A DNA stretch of 39,933 nt. Origin: a virus. Taxonomy: Duplodnaviria > Heunggongvirae > Uroviricota > Caudoviricetes. The notes under the pieces are model-generated. The model saw nothing but the letters and a program-made list of their open reading frames with translations, did no database searches and was not told where the DNA came from. The stretch is from the IMG/VR virus record IMGVR_UViG_2778261217_000006, positions 1 through 39,933 of that record; one strand, written 5' to 3'. This document shows, one piece after another, positions 698 to 35,939 of this stretch (position 1 is its first letter; every line of letters starts with the position of its first letter). A program made the translations under genes and the position numbers.

Positions 698-1060
698 GGG
701 GCTGATTCTGGATTCGACGGGATTTGCGAAACCCAAGGTGCATGCCGAGGGGCGGTTGGCCTCGTAAAAAGCCGCAAAAAATAGTCGCAAACGACGAAAA
801 CTACGCTTTAGCAGCTTAATAACCTGCTTAGAGCCCTCTCTCCCTAGCCTCCGCTCTTAGGACGGGGATCAAGAGAGGTCAAACCCAAAAGAGATCGCGT
901 GGAAGCCCTGCCTGGGGTTGAAGCGTTAAAACTTAATCAGGCTAGTTTGTTAGTGGCGTGTCCGTCCGCAGCTGGCAAGCGAATGTAAAGACTGACTAAG
1001 CATGTAGTACCGAGGATGTAGGAATTTCGGACGCGGGTTCAACTCCCGCCAGCTCCACCA
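698..1060 (+). ncRNA. ssrA: tmRNA (transfer-messenger RNA, SsrA)
   Basis: Starts GGGGCTGATTCTGGATTCGACGGG, contains the tag-reading-frame region (GCAAACGACGAAAACTACGCTTTAGCAGCTTAA) and ends ...GGTTCAACTCCCGCCAGCTCCACCA; 363 nt. Confidence 0.95.
1016..1060 (+). repeat. attL core: ssrA 3'-end copy of a 45-bp direct repeat
   Basis: Identical 45-mer ATGTAGGAATTTCGGACGCGGGTTCAACTCCCGCCAGCTCCACCA recurs at 34500..34544. Confidence 0.85.
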
Positions 1061-1911: not shown

Positions 1912-1979
1912 ATCCAGATCCCTACCTTTGCTATCAGAATCATTATAATGATACACAAAATATCAATATTGAGAACACT

Positions 1980-27021: not shown

Positions 27022-29436
27022 TCAATACAGGTTCCGCCACTTATCATCTTCCTGCAAACGCTGGTTCCGATAGAAGATACGCAGGCCTGCTCCTGACGGA
27101 ATACTGCCGCCGCGAATGAGTAAATCGACCTCTTTCTCGCTGCCATCAAATCCTCTGGACTTCAGTTCATAGACGAGCTGCTGTCGTTGATGGTCAGTAA
27201 TTCGCTGTTTGTAGTCTCTACGCCGTTTCGGTTTCACCAGGCGTAACCTTGCAGCCAGTTCCCGGCGCTCTTTTTTGTTCATACTGTGCAGGTAATCGTG
27301 CAACTCCTTGTCATCCATGCGGGTGATATCCGTTCTGGTATCCCCATCAGCTGATTTGTCTTTCCCTTGTTGGTACAAATTTTCAGCAAGGGGACAGTTA
27401 TTGCCACGAGTCCAAGGGGCGCAAGCGCCCTGGTCGGCTGCCGCCTCCTGAACGTCAACGGCCTTACGAACCATTTTCCACTTCACTGCATGAGTGCAGA
27501 TCTTGCCCTCTGCAATGGGTGACCAGATGCCATAAATACGAATACCGTGATCGCCATAGGCGGTCGGCTCTTCGTTAATTTCATAAGCAGTTCTGATGAG
27601 GTGATATTTACGGGGAACCAGTACACCTCCCTGCTTCATGATATAGGTGGCAAAACAACCAGCATCAGCAGCAGCCAGAATGGCATCAAGGCGCGGGTTA
27701 TCCAGTACCGGCACACCTGCTTTTTTGTCACCCTGCTGCCTTGCCGCCTGACCAGCCAGCAATCGCAGTTCACGGTAAGCCTGACGCCCCGGAATGCCAA
27801 AGAAGCGGAATTGCTGAACACGATGCAAAGACGCCCAGGCATTCACGTATTCAGCGTTATCACGCAGAGATTTACCCGTTTCCTTGCTGATCTCGCCAGC
27901 CAGACCACGCCCGTCAATGTTCTTGCTGATATATTTCGCGATGTAGCTTGTCGGCGTTCCTTTGCGCGGGTTAATCAACTCAGACTTAAAGCGTGGTCCC
28001 GTGTTATTCCCCAGCTCCTCGCGGTCTTCACGAATGGCAAACTTACGCAACAAAGCAGTAATGGCGCGGCGATCTTTTTTGCGCATGAAACACAACAGGT
28101 GCCAGTGAACTGTGCCGTCATGATGCGGCTCAGCCACCCGCACGCCATACCAGCGCAACCCGGCTTTGTGCATAGCCTTACGAAATGCAGCAAACATACC
28201 GACCAGATAATCGCTGCTTTGTCTTACTGTCGCGTTGGTCCAGGTCGGGTTTGGCCTGCCGTTATTTAGCGTGGAATGGAAACGTGACGGACAGGTGATG
28301 GTGTAGAAAACGGCGCAGTCACCACGCATTTCCGCGATAAGCTCCAGACCTTTAACGCAGGCCATCATCTCATTGCGGCGATGCGCCGGGTTGCTGCTGC
28401 TGGCGTTTACCACATCCTCCATGTCCAGCATGTCGCCGTCTTCGTTCACCAGTTCATGAGAACGGAAAAACTCCAGCGACTTACGGCGCTGCTCACGTTT
28501 ATGCATCACGGCTTCATAGCTGACATAGGGAGATGCTTTTTTGCTGACCAGACAGACAGCACGCAACTGCTCTTCCCGCCATTCGCAACGCATCTTCCAT
28601 AATTTCCGATACCACCAGTCGGCGCACAGCATACGCGCCAGCGAACCCGGAATGAGTTCATAGGGCACAGGTTTGCGGCGGTTTCTTTTCCGGCGGAGTT
28701 GCTCAAACGCAGGCGGTATGACATCCAGTCGCAGGGTTTCTGCTGCCACCTTTTCCCATGTCTTGCGGATTTCTTCCGGCTTAACATCATCGGAGGCGTA
28801 CAAATCACCACAAGCGGCATCAAGACACATGCTCATATGCGCAGCGACAAGGGTGGACAGGCGTTTCACCTGATCCTGACTCATTTCAGGCAGGATCAGC
28901 AGACCATCCAGCCCTTCATGGCTTGCCATAAAACGAAAAGATGCAGATAGCTGGCTGTCGCGTACATGCTCCAGTCGTTCCAGGCATGGCTTAATCGTCT
29001 CACGCAAATAGCGGGAATAAGCCTTTGGCCTGCCCAGGTTGCTGAAGTATTTAATACGTTGCATCAGCGGCTTGCTGATATGGGAAGGCTGGGCGTTGAC
29101 ATCCGCCAGAATGACCATGTCTGGATTAAAACGCTGCTGCTCATGCGCCAGCTTTGCCCGGCTAATTAGCTTATCCTGCTCCATTTCGCGCTGGACAGGA
29201 TCACGGGATTCATTAAAGAAATAACGCTCCCAGACCTGATCACTCAGTGCCTCGCGGCGCAGTTGTTCCTGCTCGTTATCGGCAGCGTACAGAGTGATCA
29301 GATTTGAAAGCGCAGAAACCGGCGCAACTTCCGCCGGGTCCAGATAAGGGTTAATGGCCTTTTTCGGGCTGTTCCATGAGAATGCTGCGGCAGCCTCGTT
29401 AAAGCCGCAGCAGTTGTTCATATCGGCATGACTCAT
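27022..29436 (-). CDS. A: Replication initiation endonuclease gpA (rolling-circle)
   Basis: 804 aa, P2/186 A-like. Confidence 0.9.
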
Positions 29437-30290
29437 GCACGTACTCCGTACACGGCAGAACTGTCCACGCCACGCGAATAATCAAATCCCACCCAGCAGC
29501 GCGGCCCGGAAACAGCAATGATTTCTGTTGCTGATTTACCCTCGCCAGCTGCCACACCGATGCTGCGTTTTACCTTGATATAGTGGTGAGTAAAATTGCG
29601 ATACAGCGAACGGATCAGGGATGTGTCACTGTTAGAAACAATGACCGGATGTCCTTCTGATGACCGATGTTCAAGAACGGATGCCAGGTGATACTGGTCA
29701 TCTTCAGTGAAACCATCAGTGTGATAGCCGGAAAACGTACCGTCATACGGCGGATCGCAATACACCACATCCCCCGCCTTCAACATCGCCAGCGTTTCAT
29801 CAAAGCTGGCGCAGATAAACGTTGCTCGCTGGGCTTTTTCTGCAAATGCGCGAATTTCTTTTTCAGGGAAATACGGATTTTTATAATTACCGTAGGGAAT
29901 GTTGAAATGCCCGCTCTTGTTATAGCGACATAAACCACGGTAACCGTGACGATTGAGATACAGGAAATATACTGCTTTCATGAAATCAGTAATTTCAGTT
30001 GAGTAATTAAACTCCTGCCTTATGTTGTAATAAGCCATCTCCCTGTTTGCGTTCTCAAATAAAACTCTGGCGCGAGATATAAACGATTCACAATCAGCAG
30101 CAACCTTTTTATAGAGGTTGATTAAATCAGGATTAATATCCGCAACAAGATAGCTGGGGTACTCCGTCTCCATCATCACTGCACAGGAACCCGCGAAAGG
30201 TTCAACCAGTCGCGGGCCAGCAGGAAGATGCTTTTTCAGTTCGGACATAATGGCGGTTTTATTTCCCGCCCATTTCAGGATGGTGCTCAT
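29433..30290 (-). CDS. DNA adenine methyltransferase (Dam family)
   Basis: ILKWAGNK and DPPY motifs; start set at the ATG with GGAGGTG upstream (the track ORF begins at 30350). Confidence 0.85.
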
Positions 30291-30514
30291 ACAGCACCTC
30301 CGTTGTAATGTTTGCCTTTCAGCTCTGCGATTTCCTGACAGGTAATGCAAAGCTGCACACCCGGAATGGCACGACGGCGTGCTGGCGGAATTGGCGCTTC
30401 ACACTCAACGCAAAGCACGCGGGACACGCCCGGCGTTTTGGCACGGGCAGCACGGATATGACGTTGGCGTTCTTCTTCAACTCGCTGCTGTACGAGATCC
30501 ATTGCATCAGCCAT
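30287..30514 (-). CDS. TraR/DksA-family C4 zinc-finger protein
   Basis: 75 aa with CVECEAPIP...CITCQ. Confidence 0.7.
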   Translation of the reverse strand: MADAMDLVQQRVEEERQRHIRAARAKTPGVSRVLCVECEAPIPPARRRAIPGVQLCITCQEIAELKGKHYNGGAV

Positions 30515-31809: not shown

Positions 31810-32319
31810 TCACAGCAAACCGAATGAAGCACCGAGGCCAGTCACGGTATCAACTGCACTCGCCATCGCAGGGTTAGCCTGTAAACGGGCCTGCAATGAA
31901 ACAGCAGTCAGCGCCATCAGTCGTGTTACAGAGTTAATGCTGCTGATAGCATCACGACGACCTGCACTGGTTTTTACATCGCCAGATACCGCACCTGCAG
32001 CAACACGCCCGATCTCTGCGGTTGCACTCATGACGTAATGTGGCAGTTTCTCTTTTGCCACCTCATTAATTGGTACGCATGGCAGGCAGTGAATCTGTGC
32101 CAGAAAGCCATCTACCAGCGTTGAATCTTCAGTCAGATCGGTAAGCAACCAGATTTCTGGCGCTGTGAGCTGATGCGGTTGATCTGGGTTGAGTTTGTTT
32201 CGCAGTGTCTGAACATTCATTCCTGCACGTTCTGCCAGCTTCGCCATATTGTGGCGTAGTGCAAAAGCTCTACAGGCTTCATCAAAATGCGGATGTTTGG
32301 AAATCTTGTAATCAAACAT
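31810..32319 (-). CDS. cII: CII-like lysogeny-establishment transcription activator (phage 186 CII family)
   Basis: 169 aa; near full-length resemblance to 186 CII as I recall it (HNMAKLAERAGMNVQTLRNKLNP...TDLTEDSTLVDGFLAQIHCLP). Confidence 0.8.
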   Translation of the reverse strand: MFDYKISKHPHFDEACRAFALRHNMAKLAERAGMNVQTLRNKLNPDQPHQLTAPEIWLLTDLTEDSTLVDGFLAQIHCLPCVPINEVAKEKLPHYVMSATAEIGRVAAGAVSGDVKTSAGRRDAISSINSVTRLMALTAVSLQARLQANPAMASAVDTVTGLGASFGLL

Positions 32320-32351
32320 GCTGCCCCCTTAGAAAGTTCTCATAATTGAAC

Positions 32352-32600
32352 TTAGCCACCAACGATGACATTAAAATTGAAATTGGATTGGCCCATGTTT
32401 TTCCTGACTTGTTCCTTTTTGTACTCAAGGTAACGTATACATACTCTGTCTTTCGGTTTTTCCTTTTTTTCCAAGAACTTAGCGAGCTTACCATTATGAA
32501 TCATTTGATATACCGAACCGCGAGAGCGGCCTTCCCATTCCGCGAACTCTGCAGGTGTCGCCATCACTTTTGGTACACGAATTGAAATGTCGTTGCTCAT
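32352..32600 (-). CDS. Apl/Cox-like small DNA-binding regulator/excisionase, first lytic-operon gene
   Basis: 82 aa basic protein, divergent from cI. Confidence 0.55.
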   Translation of the reverse strand: MSNDISIRVPKVMATPAEFAEWEGRSRGSVYQMIHNGKLAKFLEKKEKPKDRVCIRYLEYKKEQVRKNMGQSNFNFNVIVGG

Positions 32601-32777
32601 AGTGCAGTATCTCTTGGTTTAAGCTCGTTTTATGATGTTTAACCCCAACTTCTAAACTCTCATATTAGAAGTTAAATACAAAAATACGATCTCGTTATTG
32701 GATTGTCAAATGGAGAGTTCATCTTGAAGATTAGTACAGGTGCAAATACGGGAGGGAGAGAGACCATCAAAAGGCTG

Positions 32778-33353
32778 ATGACAGCCTATGGTTTCAACAC
32801 TCAGATAGCGTTGGTTGAACACCTCGAAGCATCAAAAAGCACCATGGCAAACAGGATGTTACGTGATAGCTTCCCTGCTGACTGGGTTATTCAATGTGCC
32901 CTTGAAACAGGTATTTCTCTTCTTTGGCTGACAACGGGCCAAGGGGAAATGTATCCTCAAACAGAAGAAAAAAATAAGTTCAAAAACGAGAGTTCACCTA
33001 CAGTTCGCCCCCTTTCAAAGATAGTTATCCCATCAGTAAGGCAGGCAACCATTGAGAACGGAACGCTCGAAGAGATGGGGGATGTTTTCCTTGATCAGAC
33101 TTTGATACCCGGAAAAGCCGAATATTGTTTGTACGTCAAAGCTAACGACGGCAATTACATTGTTGATACATCAACAAAACAGCTTAGTAACGGAATTTGG
33201 CTCATAGACATCGACGGTATGAAAAACATCGTCAAAATTGCGCGCATACCTGGAAACAAAATAGTAGTTAACCAAGATGACACTTCATTTGAATGTTCTG
33301 TAGATGATGTGGAAGTCGTAGGACGTGCAGTCAAAGTAATCAAGAACCTCTAA
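32778..33353 (+). CDS. cI: Immunity repressor CI (186 CI-like, no S24 peptidase domain)
   Basis: N-terminal HTH ending CALETGISLLWLTTGQGE; start set at the ATG at 32778 giving 191 aa (the track ORF begins at a TTG at 32703). Confidence 0.7.
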   Translation: MTAYGFNTQIALVEHLEASKSTMANRMLRDSFPADWVIQCALETGISLLWLTTGQGEMYPQTEEKNKFKNESSPTVRPLSKIVIPSVRQATIENGTLEEMGDVFLDQTLIPGKAEYCLYVKANDGNYIVDTSTKQLSNGIWLIDIDGMKNIVKIARIPGNKIVVNQDDTSFECSVDDVEVVGRAVKVIKNL

Positions 33354-33356
33354 CTT

Positions 33357-34382
33357 ATGACCATCAGAAAACAGCCGAACGGAAAGTGGTTATGTGAATG
33401 CTACCCAAACGGGAGAGATGGCAAACGCGTACGCAAACAATTTGCGACGAAAGGCGAAGCCATTGCGTTTGAGAATTTCACCATGGATGAGGTAAACAAG
33501 AAACCTTGGCTGGGAGAAAAGGAAGATCGGCGACAACTGTCAGAAGTGATTGAGCAATGGTATTCCCTGTACGGTCAGACACTCGCTGACCCTAAGCGAT
33601 TAATGGCTAAGTTAAAAATCATTTGTAATGGACTTGGCGATCCCATCGCTTCTGAATTGACAGCAGGTGATTTCACAAAGTACCGGGAAGCCAGATTAAA
33701 AGGTGAGGTCAAAAACGAAGATGGCGTGCTCATGTCACCGGTTAAGCCCAGAACGGTGAACCTTGAACAGCGTAACCTATCCTCAGTTTTTGGCACACTG
33801 AAAAAGCTGGGACATTGGTCTGCACCCAACCCCCTCGCCGGTCTGCCAACTTTCAAAATTGCAGAAGGTGAACTGGCGTTCCTTGCTGCTGATGAAATCA
33901 AACGCCTGCTTGACGCATGTGCTGAATCTCAAAGTCCCAGTCTGCTAATGATTGCCAAGATTTGCCTGGCTACCGGGGCAAGATGGAGCGAAGCCGAAAA
34001 CCTGCAAGGTAACCAGATATCAAAGTATCGAATTACCTATACCAAAACAAAAGGAAAGAAAAACCGAACTGTTCCTATTTCTCAGGAACTGTATGAAGAA
34101 TTACCCAAAAACAGAGGAAAGTTATTCACACCATGCCGAAAGGCTTTTGAGCGTGCGGTAAAACGAGCTGGAATTGAACTACCTGAAGGTCAATGTACCC
34201 ACGTTCTGCGCCACACTTTCGCCAGTCACTTTATGATGAACGGCGGAAACATTTTGGTATTGAGGGATATTTTAGGACACGCTGATATTAAAATGACCAT
34301 GATTTATGCCCATTTTGCACCGGATCATCTGGAAGATGCCGTTACCAAAAATCCACTTCATAACCTCAACTGGCATCGCTAA
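33357..34382 (+). CDS. int: Tyrosine integrase (P2/186 type)
   Basis: 341 aa with catalytic RHRY context (ARWSE, HVLRHTF, MIYAHF); 4 nt after cI and about 120 bp from the att repeat. Confidence 0.9.
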   Translation: MTIRKQPNGKWLCECYPNGRDGKRVRKQFATKGEAIAFENFTMDEVNKKPWLGEKEDRRQLSEVIEQWYSLYGQTLADPKRLMAKLKIICNGLGDPIASELTAGDFTKYREARLKGEVKNEDGVLMSPVKPRTVNLEQRNLSSVFGTLKKLGHWSAPNPLAGLPTFKIAEGELAFLAADEIKRLLDACAESQSPSLLMIAKICLATGARWSEAENLQGNQISKYRITYTKTKGKKNRTVPISQELYEELPKNRGKLFTPCRKAFERAVKRAGIELPEGQCTHVLRHTFASHFMMNGGNILVLRDILGHADIKMTMIYAHFAPDHLEDAVTKNPLHNLNWHR

Positions 34383-34499
34383 TAAATGGCGGCATTTTGG
34401 CGGCAGAACACTAAAAACAAGTAAAACAAGCAAATACAGACTAACACTAACACAATGATTTAAAATAAAAAAATATGATTTTGTTAGTATAAAAATGGT

Positions 34500-34544
34500 A
34501 TGTAGGAATTTCGGACGCGGGTTCAACTCCCGCCAGCTCCACCA
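34500..34544 (+). repeat. attR core: second copy of the 45-bp ssrA 3'-end repeat; also the left boundary of the next island
   Basis: Identical to 1016..1060. Confidence 0.85.
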
Positions 34545-34709
34545 CTTTTTAGTTGTTTGAAGTTCAATGAAGTCTACTAAGCCCACACAGCACAAGCTCT
34601 GCGGGCTTTTTTACGTCTATTGTCGTCCAGTGAGAATTGCTGAGAACTACGAGTTATGGCACCCTGAATGGGACCCATTAAGAAGGGTCCAAAAACCGAG
34701 GGTCCCAAA

Positions 34710-35939
34710 ATGGCAAAAATCGCTAAGAAGCTCACTGACACTGAAATCAAAAGCACCAAGCCAGCCGATAAAGAAATCAACTTGTTTGACGGTGATGGTC
34801 TGATTCTACGAATCGCTCCTTTGGCGAAAGGAGGCAAGAAAAATTGGTATTTCAGGTATGCAGTACCAGTGAGCAAGAAAAGAACCAAAATGAGCCTTGG
34901 GACATATCCTCACCTTACCCTTGCAAGAGCCAGAGCCTTACGTGATGAATATCTCTCCTTTCTGGCAAATGGTGTTGATCCCCAAATCCATAACAACGAT
35001 AAGGCGAAGGCATTAAAGAGTGCTACTGAGCACACTCTCCAAGCCGTAGCGCGGAAATGGTTAGATGAGAAGGTAAAGACATCAGGTATCTCACAAGACC
35101 ATGCAGCAGACATCTGGCGCAGCTTAGAGAGAAATGTCTTTCCCGGTCTGGGTAATGTCCCTATCAATGAGATCCGACCTAAGCTCTTAAAACAACACCT
35201 TGATCCTATTGAGCAACGAGGCGTATTGGAAACTCTACGCCGTATCATTTCACGTCTGAATGAAATCTTCCGGTGGGCAGCTACTGAAGAACTTATTGAG
35301 TTCAACCCGGCTGACAACCTTGGTCAAAGATTCAGTAAACCAAAAAAGCAAAATATGCCTGCCCTTCCCCCAAGCGAATTGCCAAGGTTTATGGAATCTT
35401 TGACGAATGCGTCAATCCGGTTGGAAACACGTATGCTAATTGAATGGCAATTGTTGACATGGGTTCGTCCGGGTGAAGCCGTTCGCGCAAGGTGGTCTGA
35501 TATTGATACAACCAACAGCATTTGGAACATTCCTGCTGATTTCATGAAAATGAAAAAGCTTCACAAAGTTCCTTTGAGTAAAGAAGCTTTGCGCATCCTT
35601 GAATTAATGAAATCAATAAGTGGGCATAGAGAATGGGTTTTCCCCAGCATAAAAGCGCCTCTTAATCATATGCATGAACAAACAGCCAACGCAGCTATCA
35701 TCCGAATGGGGTTCGGAGGCGAGCTTGTAGCTCACGGTATGCGTTCTATTGCACGAACAGCGGCAGAGGAGTCTGGTAAATTCAGAGCTGAAGTTCTTGA
35801 GGCAGCGCTTGCCCACTCGAAAAAAGATGAAATTATCGCAGCATACAATCGTGCAGAATATCTGATAGAGCGACAGAGTTTGATGCAATGGTGGAGTGAT
35901 TACGTTCAAGCTCAAAGATCAAATGCTCTGGTAGCCTAA
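34710..35939 (+). CDS. P4-type tyrosine integrase (IntA-like)
   Basis: Begins MAKIAKKLTDTEIKSTKPADKEINLFDGDGL..., the typical P4-integrase N-terminus; ATG at 34710 has GAGGG upstream (the track ORF starts at 34668). Confidence 0.85.
   Translation: MAKIAKKLTDTEIKSTKPADKEINLFDGDGLILRIAPLAKGGKKNWYFRYAVPVSKKRTKMSLGTYPHLTLARARALRDEYLSFLANGVDPQIHNNDKAKALKSATEHTLQAVARKWLDEKVKTSGISQDHAADIWRSLERNVFPGLGNVPINEIRPKLLKQHLDPIEQRGVLETLRRIISRLNEIFRWAATEELIEFNPADNLGQRFSKPKKQNMPALPPSELPRFMESLTNASIRLETRMLIEWQLLTWVRPGEAVRARWSDIDTTNSIWNIPADFMKMKKLHKVPLSKEALRILELMKSISGHREWVFPSIKAPLNHMHEQTANAAIIRMGFGGELVAHGMRSIARTAAEESGKFRAEVLEAALAHSKKDEIIAAYNRAEYLIERQSLMQWWSDYVQAQRSNALVA

What the first reader, a model, noticed from the sequence alone, without database searches (positions are those of the whole stretch)
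32601..32777. Divergent apl/cI switch region
The ~180-bp interval between the divergent apl and cI starts should contain the lytic and lysogenic promoters and CI operators of the genetic switch. I did not resolve individual operators by eye.
Basis: inference. Interest (0 to 1): 0.2.

Follow-up and report, generated by a model that had tools for sequence, protein, structure and literature searches.

The report
Phage 186-type lysis–lysogeny switch
This is the ordinary control region of a phage 186/Fels-2-like prophage, with two promoters that face each other plus repressor and excisionase binding repeats; its immunity type is rare and unstudied, but its design is already well known.

Summary
The interval holds the core of a phage 186-type genetic switch in a 33.5-kb prophage integrated in ssrA. 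apl starts at 32600 as stated. cI most likely starts at TTG 32724, not ATG 32778, so the true spacer is 123 bp (32601-32723).

By alignment with the annotated 186 record and relatives:
- The lytic promoter pR (- strand) is TTGACA 32709-32704, 17 bp, TATTTT 32686-32681.
- The lysogenic promoter pL (+ strand) is TTGAAA 32582-32587, 17 bp, CAGTAT 32605-32610.

The two promoters face each other, with predicted starts about 56 bp apart. They are not back to back.

- A 19-bp operator-like palindrome sits over the pR start (32655-32673).
- It recurs 320 bp to each side: at the apl/cII junction over the pE -10 (32335-32353) and inside cI (32976-32994). These match 186 FR and FL in position.
- Three 10-bp-phased TWAAAC repeats (32617-32642) recur next to att, as Apl sites do in 186.

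This is a new member of a known kind, of low interest. All binding and start sites are predictions from sequence.

The parts
32352..32600 (-). apl: Cox/Apl-type excisionase and switch repressor, first gene of the lytic operon
   Evidence: PHROG 6912 and 575. Aligns from Met1 with 186 Apl and Fels-2 Apl.
   Evidence: Pfam Phage_CI_repr and Phage_CI_C. PDB 2FJR E=2.5e-26, aligned from residue 13. Start aligned with the 186, Fels-2 and E. coli CIs. Synonymous substitution pattern in 32724-32777.
32712..32717 (+). Shine-Dalgarno GGAGAG for cI; overlaps the operator-like half-site GAGAGTT (32713-32719)
   Evidence: Sequence. Invariant within the immunity class.
32704..32709 (-). pR -35 TTGACA (lytic promoter)
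   Evidence: Consensus scan, 10 of 12. Aligns with the 186 pR -35. TTGAC(A/G) with a 17-bp spacer in all Fels-2-like relatives.
32681..32686 (-). pR -10 TATTTT; predicted start about 32672-32674 (- strand)
   Evidence: Every relative has TAnnnT at the aligned position.
32688..32691 (.). GATC (Dam site) at -17 to -14 of pR
   Evidence: Same offset in all enterobacterial relatives across at least 5 operator classes; absent in 186.
32690..32704 (-). Possible operator in the pR spacer (AATCCAATAACGAGA), at the position of the main 186 pR operator
   Evidence: Position from the 186 annotation. Weak resemblance ATCTC..ATTG. Shares CAAWAACGAGA with the FL-like site (I14). Inference only.
32655..32673 (+). 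Central CI operator candidate AACTCTC-ATATT-AGAAGTT, covering about +1 to +19 of pR
   Evidence: Half-sites invariant while the 5-bp centre and flanks vary among relatives. An equivalent palindrome sits at the same place in other classes.
32647..32653 (+). Third half-site AACTTCT. With 32667-32673 it forms a perfect 9-9-9 inverted repeat (32647-32673).
   Evidence: I17. AACTTCT occurs only twice in the 39.9-kb window on both strands, both copies here.
32713..32719 (+). Half-site GAGAGTT just upstream of the pR -35
   Evidence: Invariant in the class.
32617..32642 (-). Three Apl-type direct repeats (TTAAAC, TAAAAC, TTAAAC) at exact 10-bp spacing, between the pL start and the CI sites
   Evidence: 5 matches to the two-repeat pattern in the window, 0.7 expected, 0 of 100 shuffles reach 5. 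This is one of only two such clusters in the window. The same periodic repeats occur in Fels-2 and others.
32605..32610 (+). pL -10 CAGTAT; predicted start about 32616-32617 (+ strand)
   Evidence: Aligns with the 186 pL -10. Invariant in all Fels-2-like relatives.
32582..32587 (+). pL -35 TTGAAA, inside apl codons 5-7
   Evidence: Aligns with the 186 pL -35, which is also inside apl. Invariant at synonymous sites in 9 relatives, and present in Photorhabdus and Xenorhabdus loci.
32335..32353 (+). FR-like site AGTTCTC-ATAAT-TGAACTT; overlaps the apl stop codon and the pE -10
   Evidence: D2.. Aligns under 186 FR. Centre lies 320 bp from the central site.
32976..32994 (-). FL-like site AACTCTC-GTTTT-TGAACTT, inside cI codons 85-91 (inter-domain linker)
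   Evidence: I1.. 186 FL lies in codons 90-96 of its cI. Centre lies 321 bp from the central site.
32293..32319 (+). CII-binding inverted repeat ATGTTTG-N13-CAAACAT at the cII start (pE activator site)
   Evidence: Same sequence and position as the annotated 186 CII site.
32341..32346 (+). pE -10 CATAAT (establishment promoter reading towards cI)
   Evidence: Aligned with 186 CATAAA inside the annotated pE. Inference.
31810..32319 (-). cII activator gene
   Evidence: Pfam Phage_CP76 E=3.5e-44. PHROG 101.
34412..34453 (+). Apl-type repeats next to att, between the int stop (34382) and the att core (34500-34544), in the opposite orientation to those in the switch
   Evidence: Same layout as the five Apl sites at 186 attP.

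Best explanation
The interval is the core of a phage 186-type lysis-lysogeny switch.

**Promoters.** A strong leftward lytic promoter pR (-35 at 32709-32704, -10 at 32686-32681) drives apl-cII and the downstream early genes. A weaker rightward lysogenic promoter pL (-35 at 32582-32587, -10 at 32605-32610) drives cI-int. They fire into each other across about 56 bp, so pR activity suppresses pL by transcriptional interference.

[quoted passage not shown] It is proposed to bind the repeats at and around the pR start (32647-32673, 32713-19, and perhaps the pR spacer). This would shut pR and so relieve pL. Distal sites 320 bp away on each side (32335-32353 and 32976-32994) would loop to the same CI complex. 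The one at the apl/cII junction would also cover the pE -10.

**Apl.** Apl is proposed to bind the three 10-bp-phased TWAAAC repeats (32617-32642) and the similar repeats beside att. It would damp both promoters and direct excision.

**CII.** CII is proposed to bind ATGTTTG-N13-CAAACAT (32293-32319) and fire pE to establish lysogeny.

**Shown here:** gene identities, homology, and the positions and conservation of the sequence elements.

**Inferred:** all binding events, start sites and regulatory effects.
For: - **Gene set and order:** int-cI / apl-cII-fil, as in 186. CI matches PDB 2FJR and 2FKD.
- **pR and pL:** alignment to the fully annotated 186 record places both hexamer pairs at matching positions. 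The 14-bp gap between the cI start and the pR -35 is the same as in 186.
- **pR conservation:** TTGACx-17-TAnnnT is conserved in every Fels-2-like relative.
- **pL conservation:** TTGAAA-17-CAGTAT is invariant, even at synonymous apl sites.
- **Central site:** half-sites are invariant while the centre and flanks vary. AACTTCT is unique to this spot in 39.9 kb.
- **Distal sites:** the 19-bp pattern recurs exactly at the positions homologous to 186 FR and FL.
- **Apl-type repeats:** they cluster only in the switch and beside att, with inverted relative orientation as in 186.
- **CII site:** its half-sites and N13 spacing match those of 186.
- **Literature model of 186:** PMC3675496 and PMC7498355.
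Against: - No experimental data exist for this immunity class.
- The three-operator, two-helical-turn pattern of 186 pR is not clearly recognisable. The strongest palindrome lies over +1 rather than in the -35/-10 spacer.
- Only three clear Apl-type repeats are present, against seven in 186.
- The FR-like site is nearly identical in relatives whose pR operators differ. Its conservation could therefore reflect the pE -10, the apl stop codon or the cII ribosome site rather than CI binding.
- The 19-bp pattern was derived from the same three sites it then finds, so that search is partly circular.
- The site expected at the late activator promoter pB is weak, with 3 mismatches.
Confidence: 0.88

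Rival explanations
1. A lambda-style switch. Back-to-back divergent promoters share a tripartite operator between them, as the reader's wording 'divergent' suggests. A cI promoter near 32631-32659 (TTATGA-17-TAAACT) would fire away from pR.
For: The genes are divergent. A weak promoter-like match can be read by eye at 32631-32659.
Against: That match did not pass the scan and is not conserved even in the nearest relatives. CI lacks a lambda-type S24 peptidase domain and has the 186 C-terminal domain instead. The conserved TTGAAA-17-CAGTAT aligns with the mapped 186 pL.
Confidence: 0.04
2. A P2-type C/Cox switch. The repressor binds two direct repeats at the early promoter, with no CII, no establishment promoter and no distal sites.
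For: The tail and late genes are P2-like, and Apl is a Cox homologue.
Against: The repressor is of the CI (186) type, not the P2 C type. cII and its binding site are present. The repeats are inverted, not direct.
Confidence: 0.02
3. Same 186-type switch, but with operators assigned differently. The main CI operator would be the pR spacer element (32690-32704), as in 186. The 27-bp inverted repeat over +1 and the FR-like site would then serve something else, such as Apl spreading, pE promoter elements or mRNA leader structure.
For: - In 186 the strongest operator lies in the spacer.
- Other classes (L006, L007) carry a clear palindrome in the spacer.
- The FR-like site is conserved across classes that differ in their pR repeats.
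Against: - The window's spacer element is a poor palindrome and varies within the class (CTCGTT, CCCATT, CCCGAT).
- The +1 half-sites, by contrast, are invariant.
- The +1 motif recurs inside cI at the FL position.
Confidence: 0.12

Closest known systems
Coliphage 186 pR-pL switch (CI, Apl, CII; FL and FR sites)
   Same: - Same gene order and homologous CI, Apl and CII.
- Face-to-face pR and pL, with the pL -35 inside apl.
- The same 14-bp gap between the cI start and the pR -35.
- Distal operator-like sites inside cI and at the apl/cII junction.
- Apl repeats both in the switch and beside att.
- Identical CII inverted-repeat half-sites at the same N13 spacing.
   Different: - CI is only 34% identical and Apl 33%.
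- The operator sequences differ (AACTCTC and AACTTCT here; ATCTC or ATTCAC in 186).
- The strongest palindrome lies over +1, not in the spacer.
- Predicted promoter start separation is about 56 bp here and 62 bp in 186.
- There are 3 clear Apl repeats here and 7 in 186.
- cI uses a TTG start.
- A GATC sits in the pR spacer.
- The prophage integrates in ssrA, whereas 186 integrates at a tRNA-Ile gene.
Fels-2 / SopEPhi / RE-2010 group (Felsduovirus) prophages integrated in ssrA
   Same: Closest overall relatives, at 74-81% DNA identity across the region. They share the ssrA attachment site, identical pL and Apl-side sequence, a near-identical FR-like site, and the GATC at the same pR position.
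   Different: CI is 61% identical to Fels-2 CI. The repeats around the pR start are unrelated in sequence (GGTTTG/CAAACC in Fels-2), so this is probably a different immunity class. None of these switches has been dissected experimentally, to my knowledge.
P2 C-Cox switch
   Same: Convergent early and lysogenic promoters, and a Cox/Apl-type dual-function excisionase.
   Different: The repressor family is unrelated and uses direct-repeat operators. P2 has no cII, no pE and no distal looping sites.

Membership tests
Phage 186-type (CI/Apl/CII) lysis-lysogeny switch | Repressor with the 186 CI N-terminal HTH domain and the wheel-forming C-terminal domain | tested here: met
   Pfam PF07022 (E=1.5e-28) and PF16452 (E=2e-30). 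PDB 2FJR E=2.5e-26 and 2FKD E=9e-11.
Phage 186-type (CI/Apl/CII) lysis-lysogeny switch | Cox/Apl-type gene first in the lytic operon, divergent from cI and followed by cII | tested here: met
Phage 186-type (CI/Apl/CII) lysis-lysogeny switch | Face-to-face lytic and lysogenic promoters with starts 40-62 bp apart | tested here: met
   Met at sequence level only. The hexamers align with the mapped 186 pR and pL and are conserved in relatives. Predicted starts are about 56 bp apart. Start sites were not mapped.
Phage 186-type (CI/Apl/CII) lysis-lysogeny switch | Three CI operators at pR spaced two helical turns apart | tested here: inconclusive
   Operator-like half-sites lie at 32647-53, 32655-73 and 32713-19, with a weak spacer element. 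No clean 21-bp series could be resolved.
Phage 186-type (CI/Apl/CII) lysis-lysogeny switch | Distal CI sites about 300 bp to each side (FL inside cI, FR at the apl/cII junction) | tested here: met
   19-bp sites at 32976-32994 and 32335-32353, 321 and 320 bp from the central site, at positions homologous to 186 FL and FR. Binding was not tested.
Phage 186-type (CI/Apl/CII) lysis-lysogeny switch | Apl direct repeats at 10-11 bp spacing between pR and pL, and again at att | tested here: met
   Three exact 10-bp-phased TWAAAC repeats at 32617-32642, and related repeats at 34412-34453. These are the only two such clusters in the window.
Phage 186-type (CI/Apl/CII) lysis-lysogeny switch | CII-activated establishment promoter with an inverted repeat at the cII start | tested here: met
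   ATGTTTG-N13-CAAACAT at 32293-32319, with the same half-sites and N13 spacing as the annotated 186 CII site.
Phage 186-type (CI/Apl/CII) lysis-lysogeny switch | CI represses pR and indirectly activates pL; Apl represses both | not testable with these tools
   Needs reporter fusions and footprinting.
Lambda-type switch | Back-to-back PR and PRM promoters with OR1-3; repressor with a RecA-cleavable S24 peptidase domain | tested here: not met
   No S24 domain. The promoters converge.
P2-type C/Cox switch | P2 C-family repressor with direct-repeat operators; no cII | tested here: not met
   The repressor is of the CI type, cII is present, and the repeats are inverted.

The most novel reading that the evidence does not exclude
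This reading concerns the switch class as a whole (window, Fels-2, RE-2010 and other enterobacterial relatives). The class may add a layer that 186 lacks. An invariant GATC at -17 to -14 of the lytic promoter is kept at the same offset across at least five operator classes, in phages that encode their own Dam methylase. It could make pR firing or CI binding sensitive to methylation state, for example after replication.

In addition, the CI recognition helix is almost invariant across these classes, while the repeats at pR differ. This suggests a shared specificity for FR-type sites plus a class-specific specificity at pR.
Probability: 0.15. Interest if true: 0.45.

Novelty: new member of a known kind. 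Interest (0 to 1): 0.15.

Why it matters
It matters little on its own. The work gives a corrected, element-by-element annotation of an uncharacterised immunity class of 186/Fels-2-like prophages. This class is present in 22 of 5426 complete E. coli genomes and in no deposited phage record at megablast level. The annotation shows that the whole 186 design is conserved far from 186 itself: convergent promoters, distal operator-like sites, dual-site Apl repeats and a CII-dependent pE. That could help prophage annotation and the choice of orthogonal repressor-operator pairs. The conserved GATC in pR is a small, testable lead.

Tried and rejected
- **Consensus promoter scan alone**: 2 hits found, 1.6 expected. 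It is not significant by itself, and pL falls below its threshold.
rejected.
- **Automated distal-site search over 32 loci**: I picked the best palindrome in each locus and looked for copies at about 300 bp. It was uninformative. The palindrome choice was unstable, and in 186 the distal sites are of a different sequence type from the pR sites.
- **CI site at the late activator promoter pB** (186 has two there): only a weak match, TGTTCTCAATATTGATATT at 1959-1977 on the - strand, with 3 mismatches, directly after the D stop codon.
- **Extending the Apl repeat phase beyond 32642:** no convincing further repeats.
- **Megablast of the immunity module against phage records:** no match.
- **Literature search for Dam/GATC control of P2-like early promoters:** nothing relevant.
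- **Rfam:** only the tmRNA gene in the window.

Full report
**Context.** The window carries a prophage of about 33.5 kb inserted in the 3' end of ssrA.
- The tmRNA gene lies at 698-1060.
- A 45-bp direct repeat at 1016-1060 and 34500-34544 marks the attachment sites.
- At the right end the gene order is cII (31810-32319, -), apl (32352-32600, -), cI (+), int (33357-34382, +).
- Pfam, PHROG and PDB searches identify these genes. CI is of the phage 186 type (Phage_CI_repr and Phage_CI_C; PDB 2FJR E=2.5e-26). Apl is a Cox/Apl-type excisionase-repressor. CII is a 186-type activator.
- The nearest deposited relatives are Fels-2-like Peduoviridae at 74-81% DNA identity. E. coli prophages reach 93%.

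**Checking the observation.** The left boundary is right. Apl aligns from its first residue with 186 Apl and Fels-2 Apl. The right boundary is not.
- The Pfam HTH model, the 2FJR alignment, and the CIs of 186, Fels-2 and an E. coli protein of 209 aa (99% identical) all extend upstream of Met 32778.
- That Met is Ile or Leu in other classes.
- The stretch 32724-32777 differs from the Klebsiella relatives mainly at third codon positions.
- The best start is TTG 32724, preceded by GGAGAG at 32712-32717.
- The spacer is therefore 123 bp (32601-32723). This falls within the 88-125 nt reported for CI-type P2-like phages (PMC3448106).

**Promoters.** The GenBank record of phage 186 annotates pR, pL, pE and the CI, Apl and CII sites. 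I aligned it with the window.
- **pR** (- strand) is TTGACA 32709-32704, 17 bp, TATTTT 32686-32681.
  - It is the only strong hit of the consensus scan, at 10 of 12.
  - The 14-bp gap between the cI start and the -35 is the same as in 186.
  - Every Fels-2-like relative has TTGAC(A/G)-17-TAnnnT at this place, although the spacers differ.
- **pL** (+ strand) is TTGAAA 32582-32587, 17 bp, CAGTAT 32605-32610.
  - It aligns with 186 TTGCGA-17-CATGAT.
  - As in 186, the -35 lies inside apl and the apl start codon lies in the promoter spacer.
  - Both hexamers are invariant in nine relatives, even at synonymous apl positions. They recur in the Photorhabdus and Xenorhabdus loci.
- Predicted starts are about 32672-32674 for pR and about 32616-32617 for pL. 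They face each other about 56 bp apart. This is within the 40-60 bp typical of P2-like phages (PMC7498355), and 186 has 62 bp.
- The switch is therefore convergent, not back to back. By consensus match, pR (10 of 12) is stronger than pL (8 of 12). This is the precondition for the transcriptional interference described for 186 (PMC3675496).

**Operator-like repeats.**
- A perfect 9-9-9 inverted repeat, AACTTCTAA-N9-TTAGAAGTT, spans 32647-32673.
- Nested in it is a 19-bp site, AACTCTC-ATATT-AGAAGTT (32655-32673), which covers about +1 to +19 of pR.
- A further GAGAGTT lies just upstream of the -35 (32713-32719).
- AACTTCT occurs only twice in the whole 39.9-kb window on both strands, and both copies are here. 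Three of the six AACTCTC copies lie within 340 bp of each other.
- Among the E. coli prophage loci compared (L003, L033, L034) and the two Klebsiella relatives (CI 83% identical in L010), the half-sites are invariant. The 5-bp centre (ATATT, ACATT, ACTTT) and the flanks vary. This is the pattern expected of a protein-binding site.
- Other classes carry a different palindrome at the same place.
- I could not resolve a clean series of three sites two helical turns apart, as described for 186.
- The element in the pR spacer, where the main 186 operator lies, is only weakly palindromic here and varies within the class.

**Distal sites.** The 19-bp motif recurs twice.
- One copy is at 32335-32353 (AGTTCTC-ATAAT-TGAACTT).
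- The other is on the - strand at 32976-32994 (AACTCTC-GTTTT-TGAACTT).
- Their centres lie 320 and 321 bp from the central site.
- The first overlaps the apl stop codon and a CATAAT that aligns with the pE -10 region of 186. It sits exactly under 186 FR in the alignment.
- The second lies in cI codons 85-91, in the inter-domain linker. 186 FL is in codons 90-96.
- In 186 these sites loop to the CI wheel at pR. They strengthen repression and allow CI to activate pL (PMC3675496).
- Caveat 1: the pattern search is partly circular, because the pattern was derived from these same sites.
- Caveat 2: the FR-like site is nearly identical in relatives whose pR repeats differ. Its conservation may therefore owe something to pE, the apl stop codon or the cII ribosome site.
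- The CI recognition helix (SKSTMANRxLRD) is almost invariant across these classes. A shared specificity for FR-type sites is therefore also possible.

**Apl and CII elements.**
- Three hexamers (TTAAAC, TAAAAC, TTAAAC on the - strand) sit at exact 10-bp spacing at 32617-32642, between the pL start and the CI repeats.
- The two-repeat pattern gives 5 matches in the window with 0.7 expected, and none of 100 shuffles reaches 5.
- Only one other place in the window has three or more same-strand copies of the loosened hexamer T[AT]A[AC]AC within 45 bp. It is at 34412-34453, between int and the att core, in the opposite orientation.
- This mirrors the 186 layout of seven sites in the switch and five at attP. 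Three adjacent sites is the minimum that bound Apl in vitro (PMC7498355).
- The CII inverted repeat ATGTTTG-N13-CAAACAT lies at 32293-32319. It has the same half-sites and N13 spacing as the 186 site, and it spans the cII start.

**Distribution.** The stretch 32601-33000 is at least 99% identical in 19 of 5426 complete E. coli genomes, and 22 genomes match in all. It has no megablast match among 50,697 phage records. One E. coli prophage is 100% identical over the searched stretch 32601-33000, and by alignment from about 32593. Its Apl, however, is only 73% identical. The exchanged immunity module therefore runs from the pL spacer through cI.

**Verdict.** This is a standard 186-type switch of an unstudied immunity class. 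It needs three corrections: the cI start, the promoter geometry, and the elements that lie outside the interval. Nothing here is unexpected for a specialist. All binding events and start sites are predictions.

Noticed in passing
window 32688-32691, and the aligned position in L002-L010 and L029-L033: A GATC (Dam site) lies at -17 to -14 of the predicted lytic promoter. It keeps the same offset in every enterobacterial 186/Fels-2-like locus examined, across at least five classes whose spacers otherwise differ. It is absent from 186 and from two Xenorhabdus loci. The prophage encodes its own Dam methylase (ORF listed at 29433-30350, -). No paper on this was found.
   Followed up: partly
window about 32593, compared with L034 and L003: There is a mosaic boundary just inside apl. 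To its right, the pL spacer, operators and cI N-terminal half are 100% identical to an E. coli prophage. To its left, apl is only 73% identical at protein level. The FR-like site and pE lie outside the exchanged immunity module.
   Followed up: partly
CI residues about 40-55 (window 32840-32890) compared with L002, L006, L007, L013, L015: The predicted recognition helix SKSTMANRxLRDSFP is almost invariant among classes whose pR repeats are unrelated in sequence. Only one helix position and the start of helix 2 vary. How specificity differs between these classes is unexplained.
   Followed up: partly
window 32724-32726: cI appears to use a TTG start codon. This is shared by the relatives with the same or near-same pR repeats (the E. 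coli loci and L005/L010), whereas other classes use ATG a few bases upstream. Its Shine-Dalgarno overlaps an operator-like half-site.
   Followed up: partly
window 1016-1060 and 34500-34544; 34668-35939: A 45-bp att duplication of the ssrA 3' end brackets the prophage. Immediately beyond attR lies a second integrase ORF of 423 aa (family not checked; it may be P4/CP4-57-like), which suggests a tandem island at ssrA.
   Followed up: no
window 1959-1977 (- strand): A weak operator-like sequence, TGTTCTCAATATTGATATT, lies directly after the D stop codon and upstream of the ogr/B-like late activator gene. In 186, CI binds at this position to repress pB.
   Followed up: partly
window 34383-34405 and about 1110-1125: Repeated TGGCGGCA motifs lie next to int and at the other prophage end. 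They are likely arm-type integrase sites.
   Followed up: no
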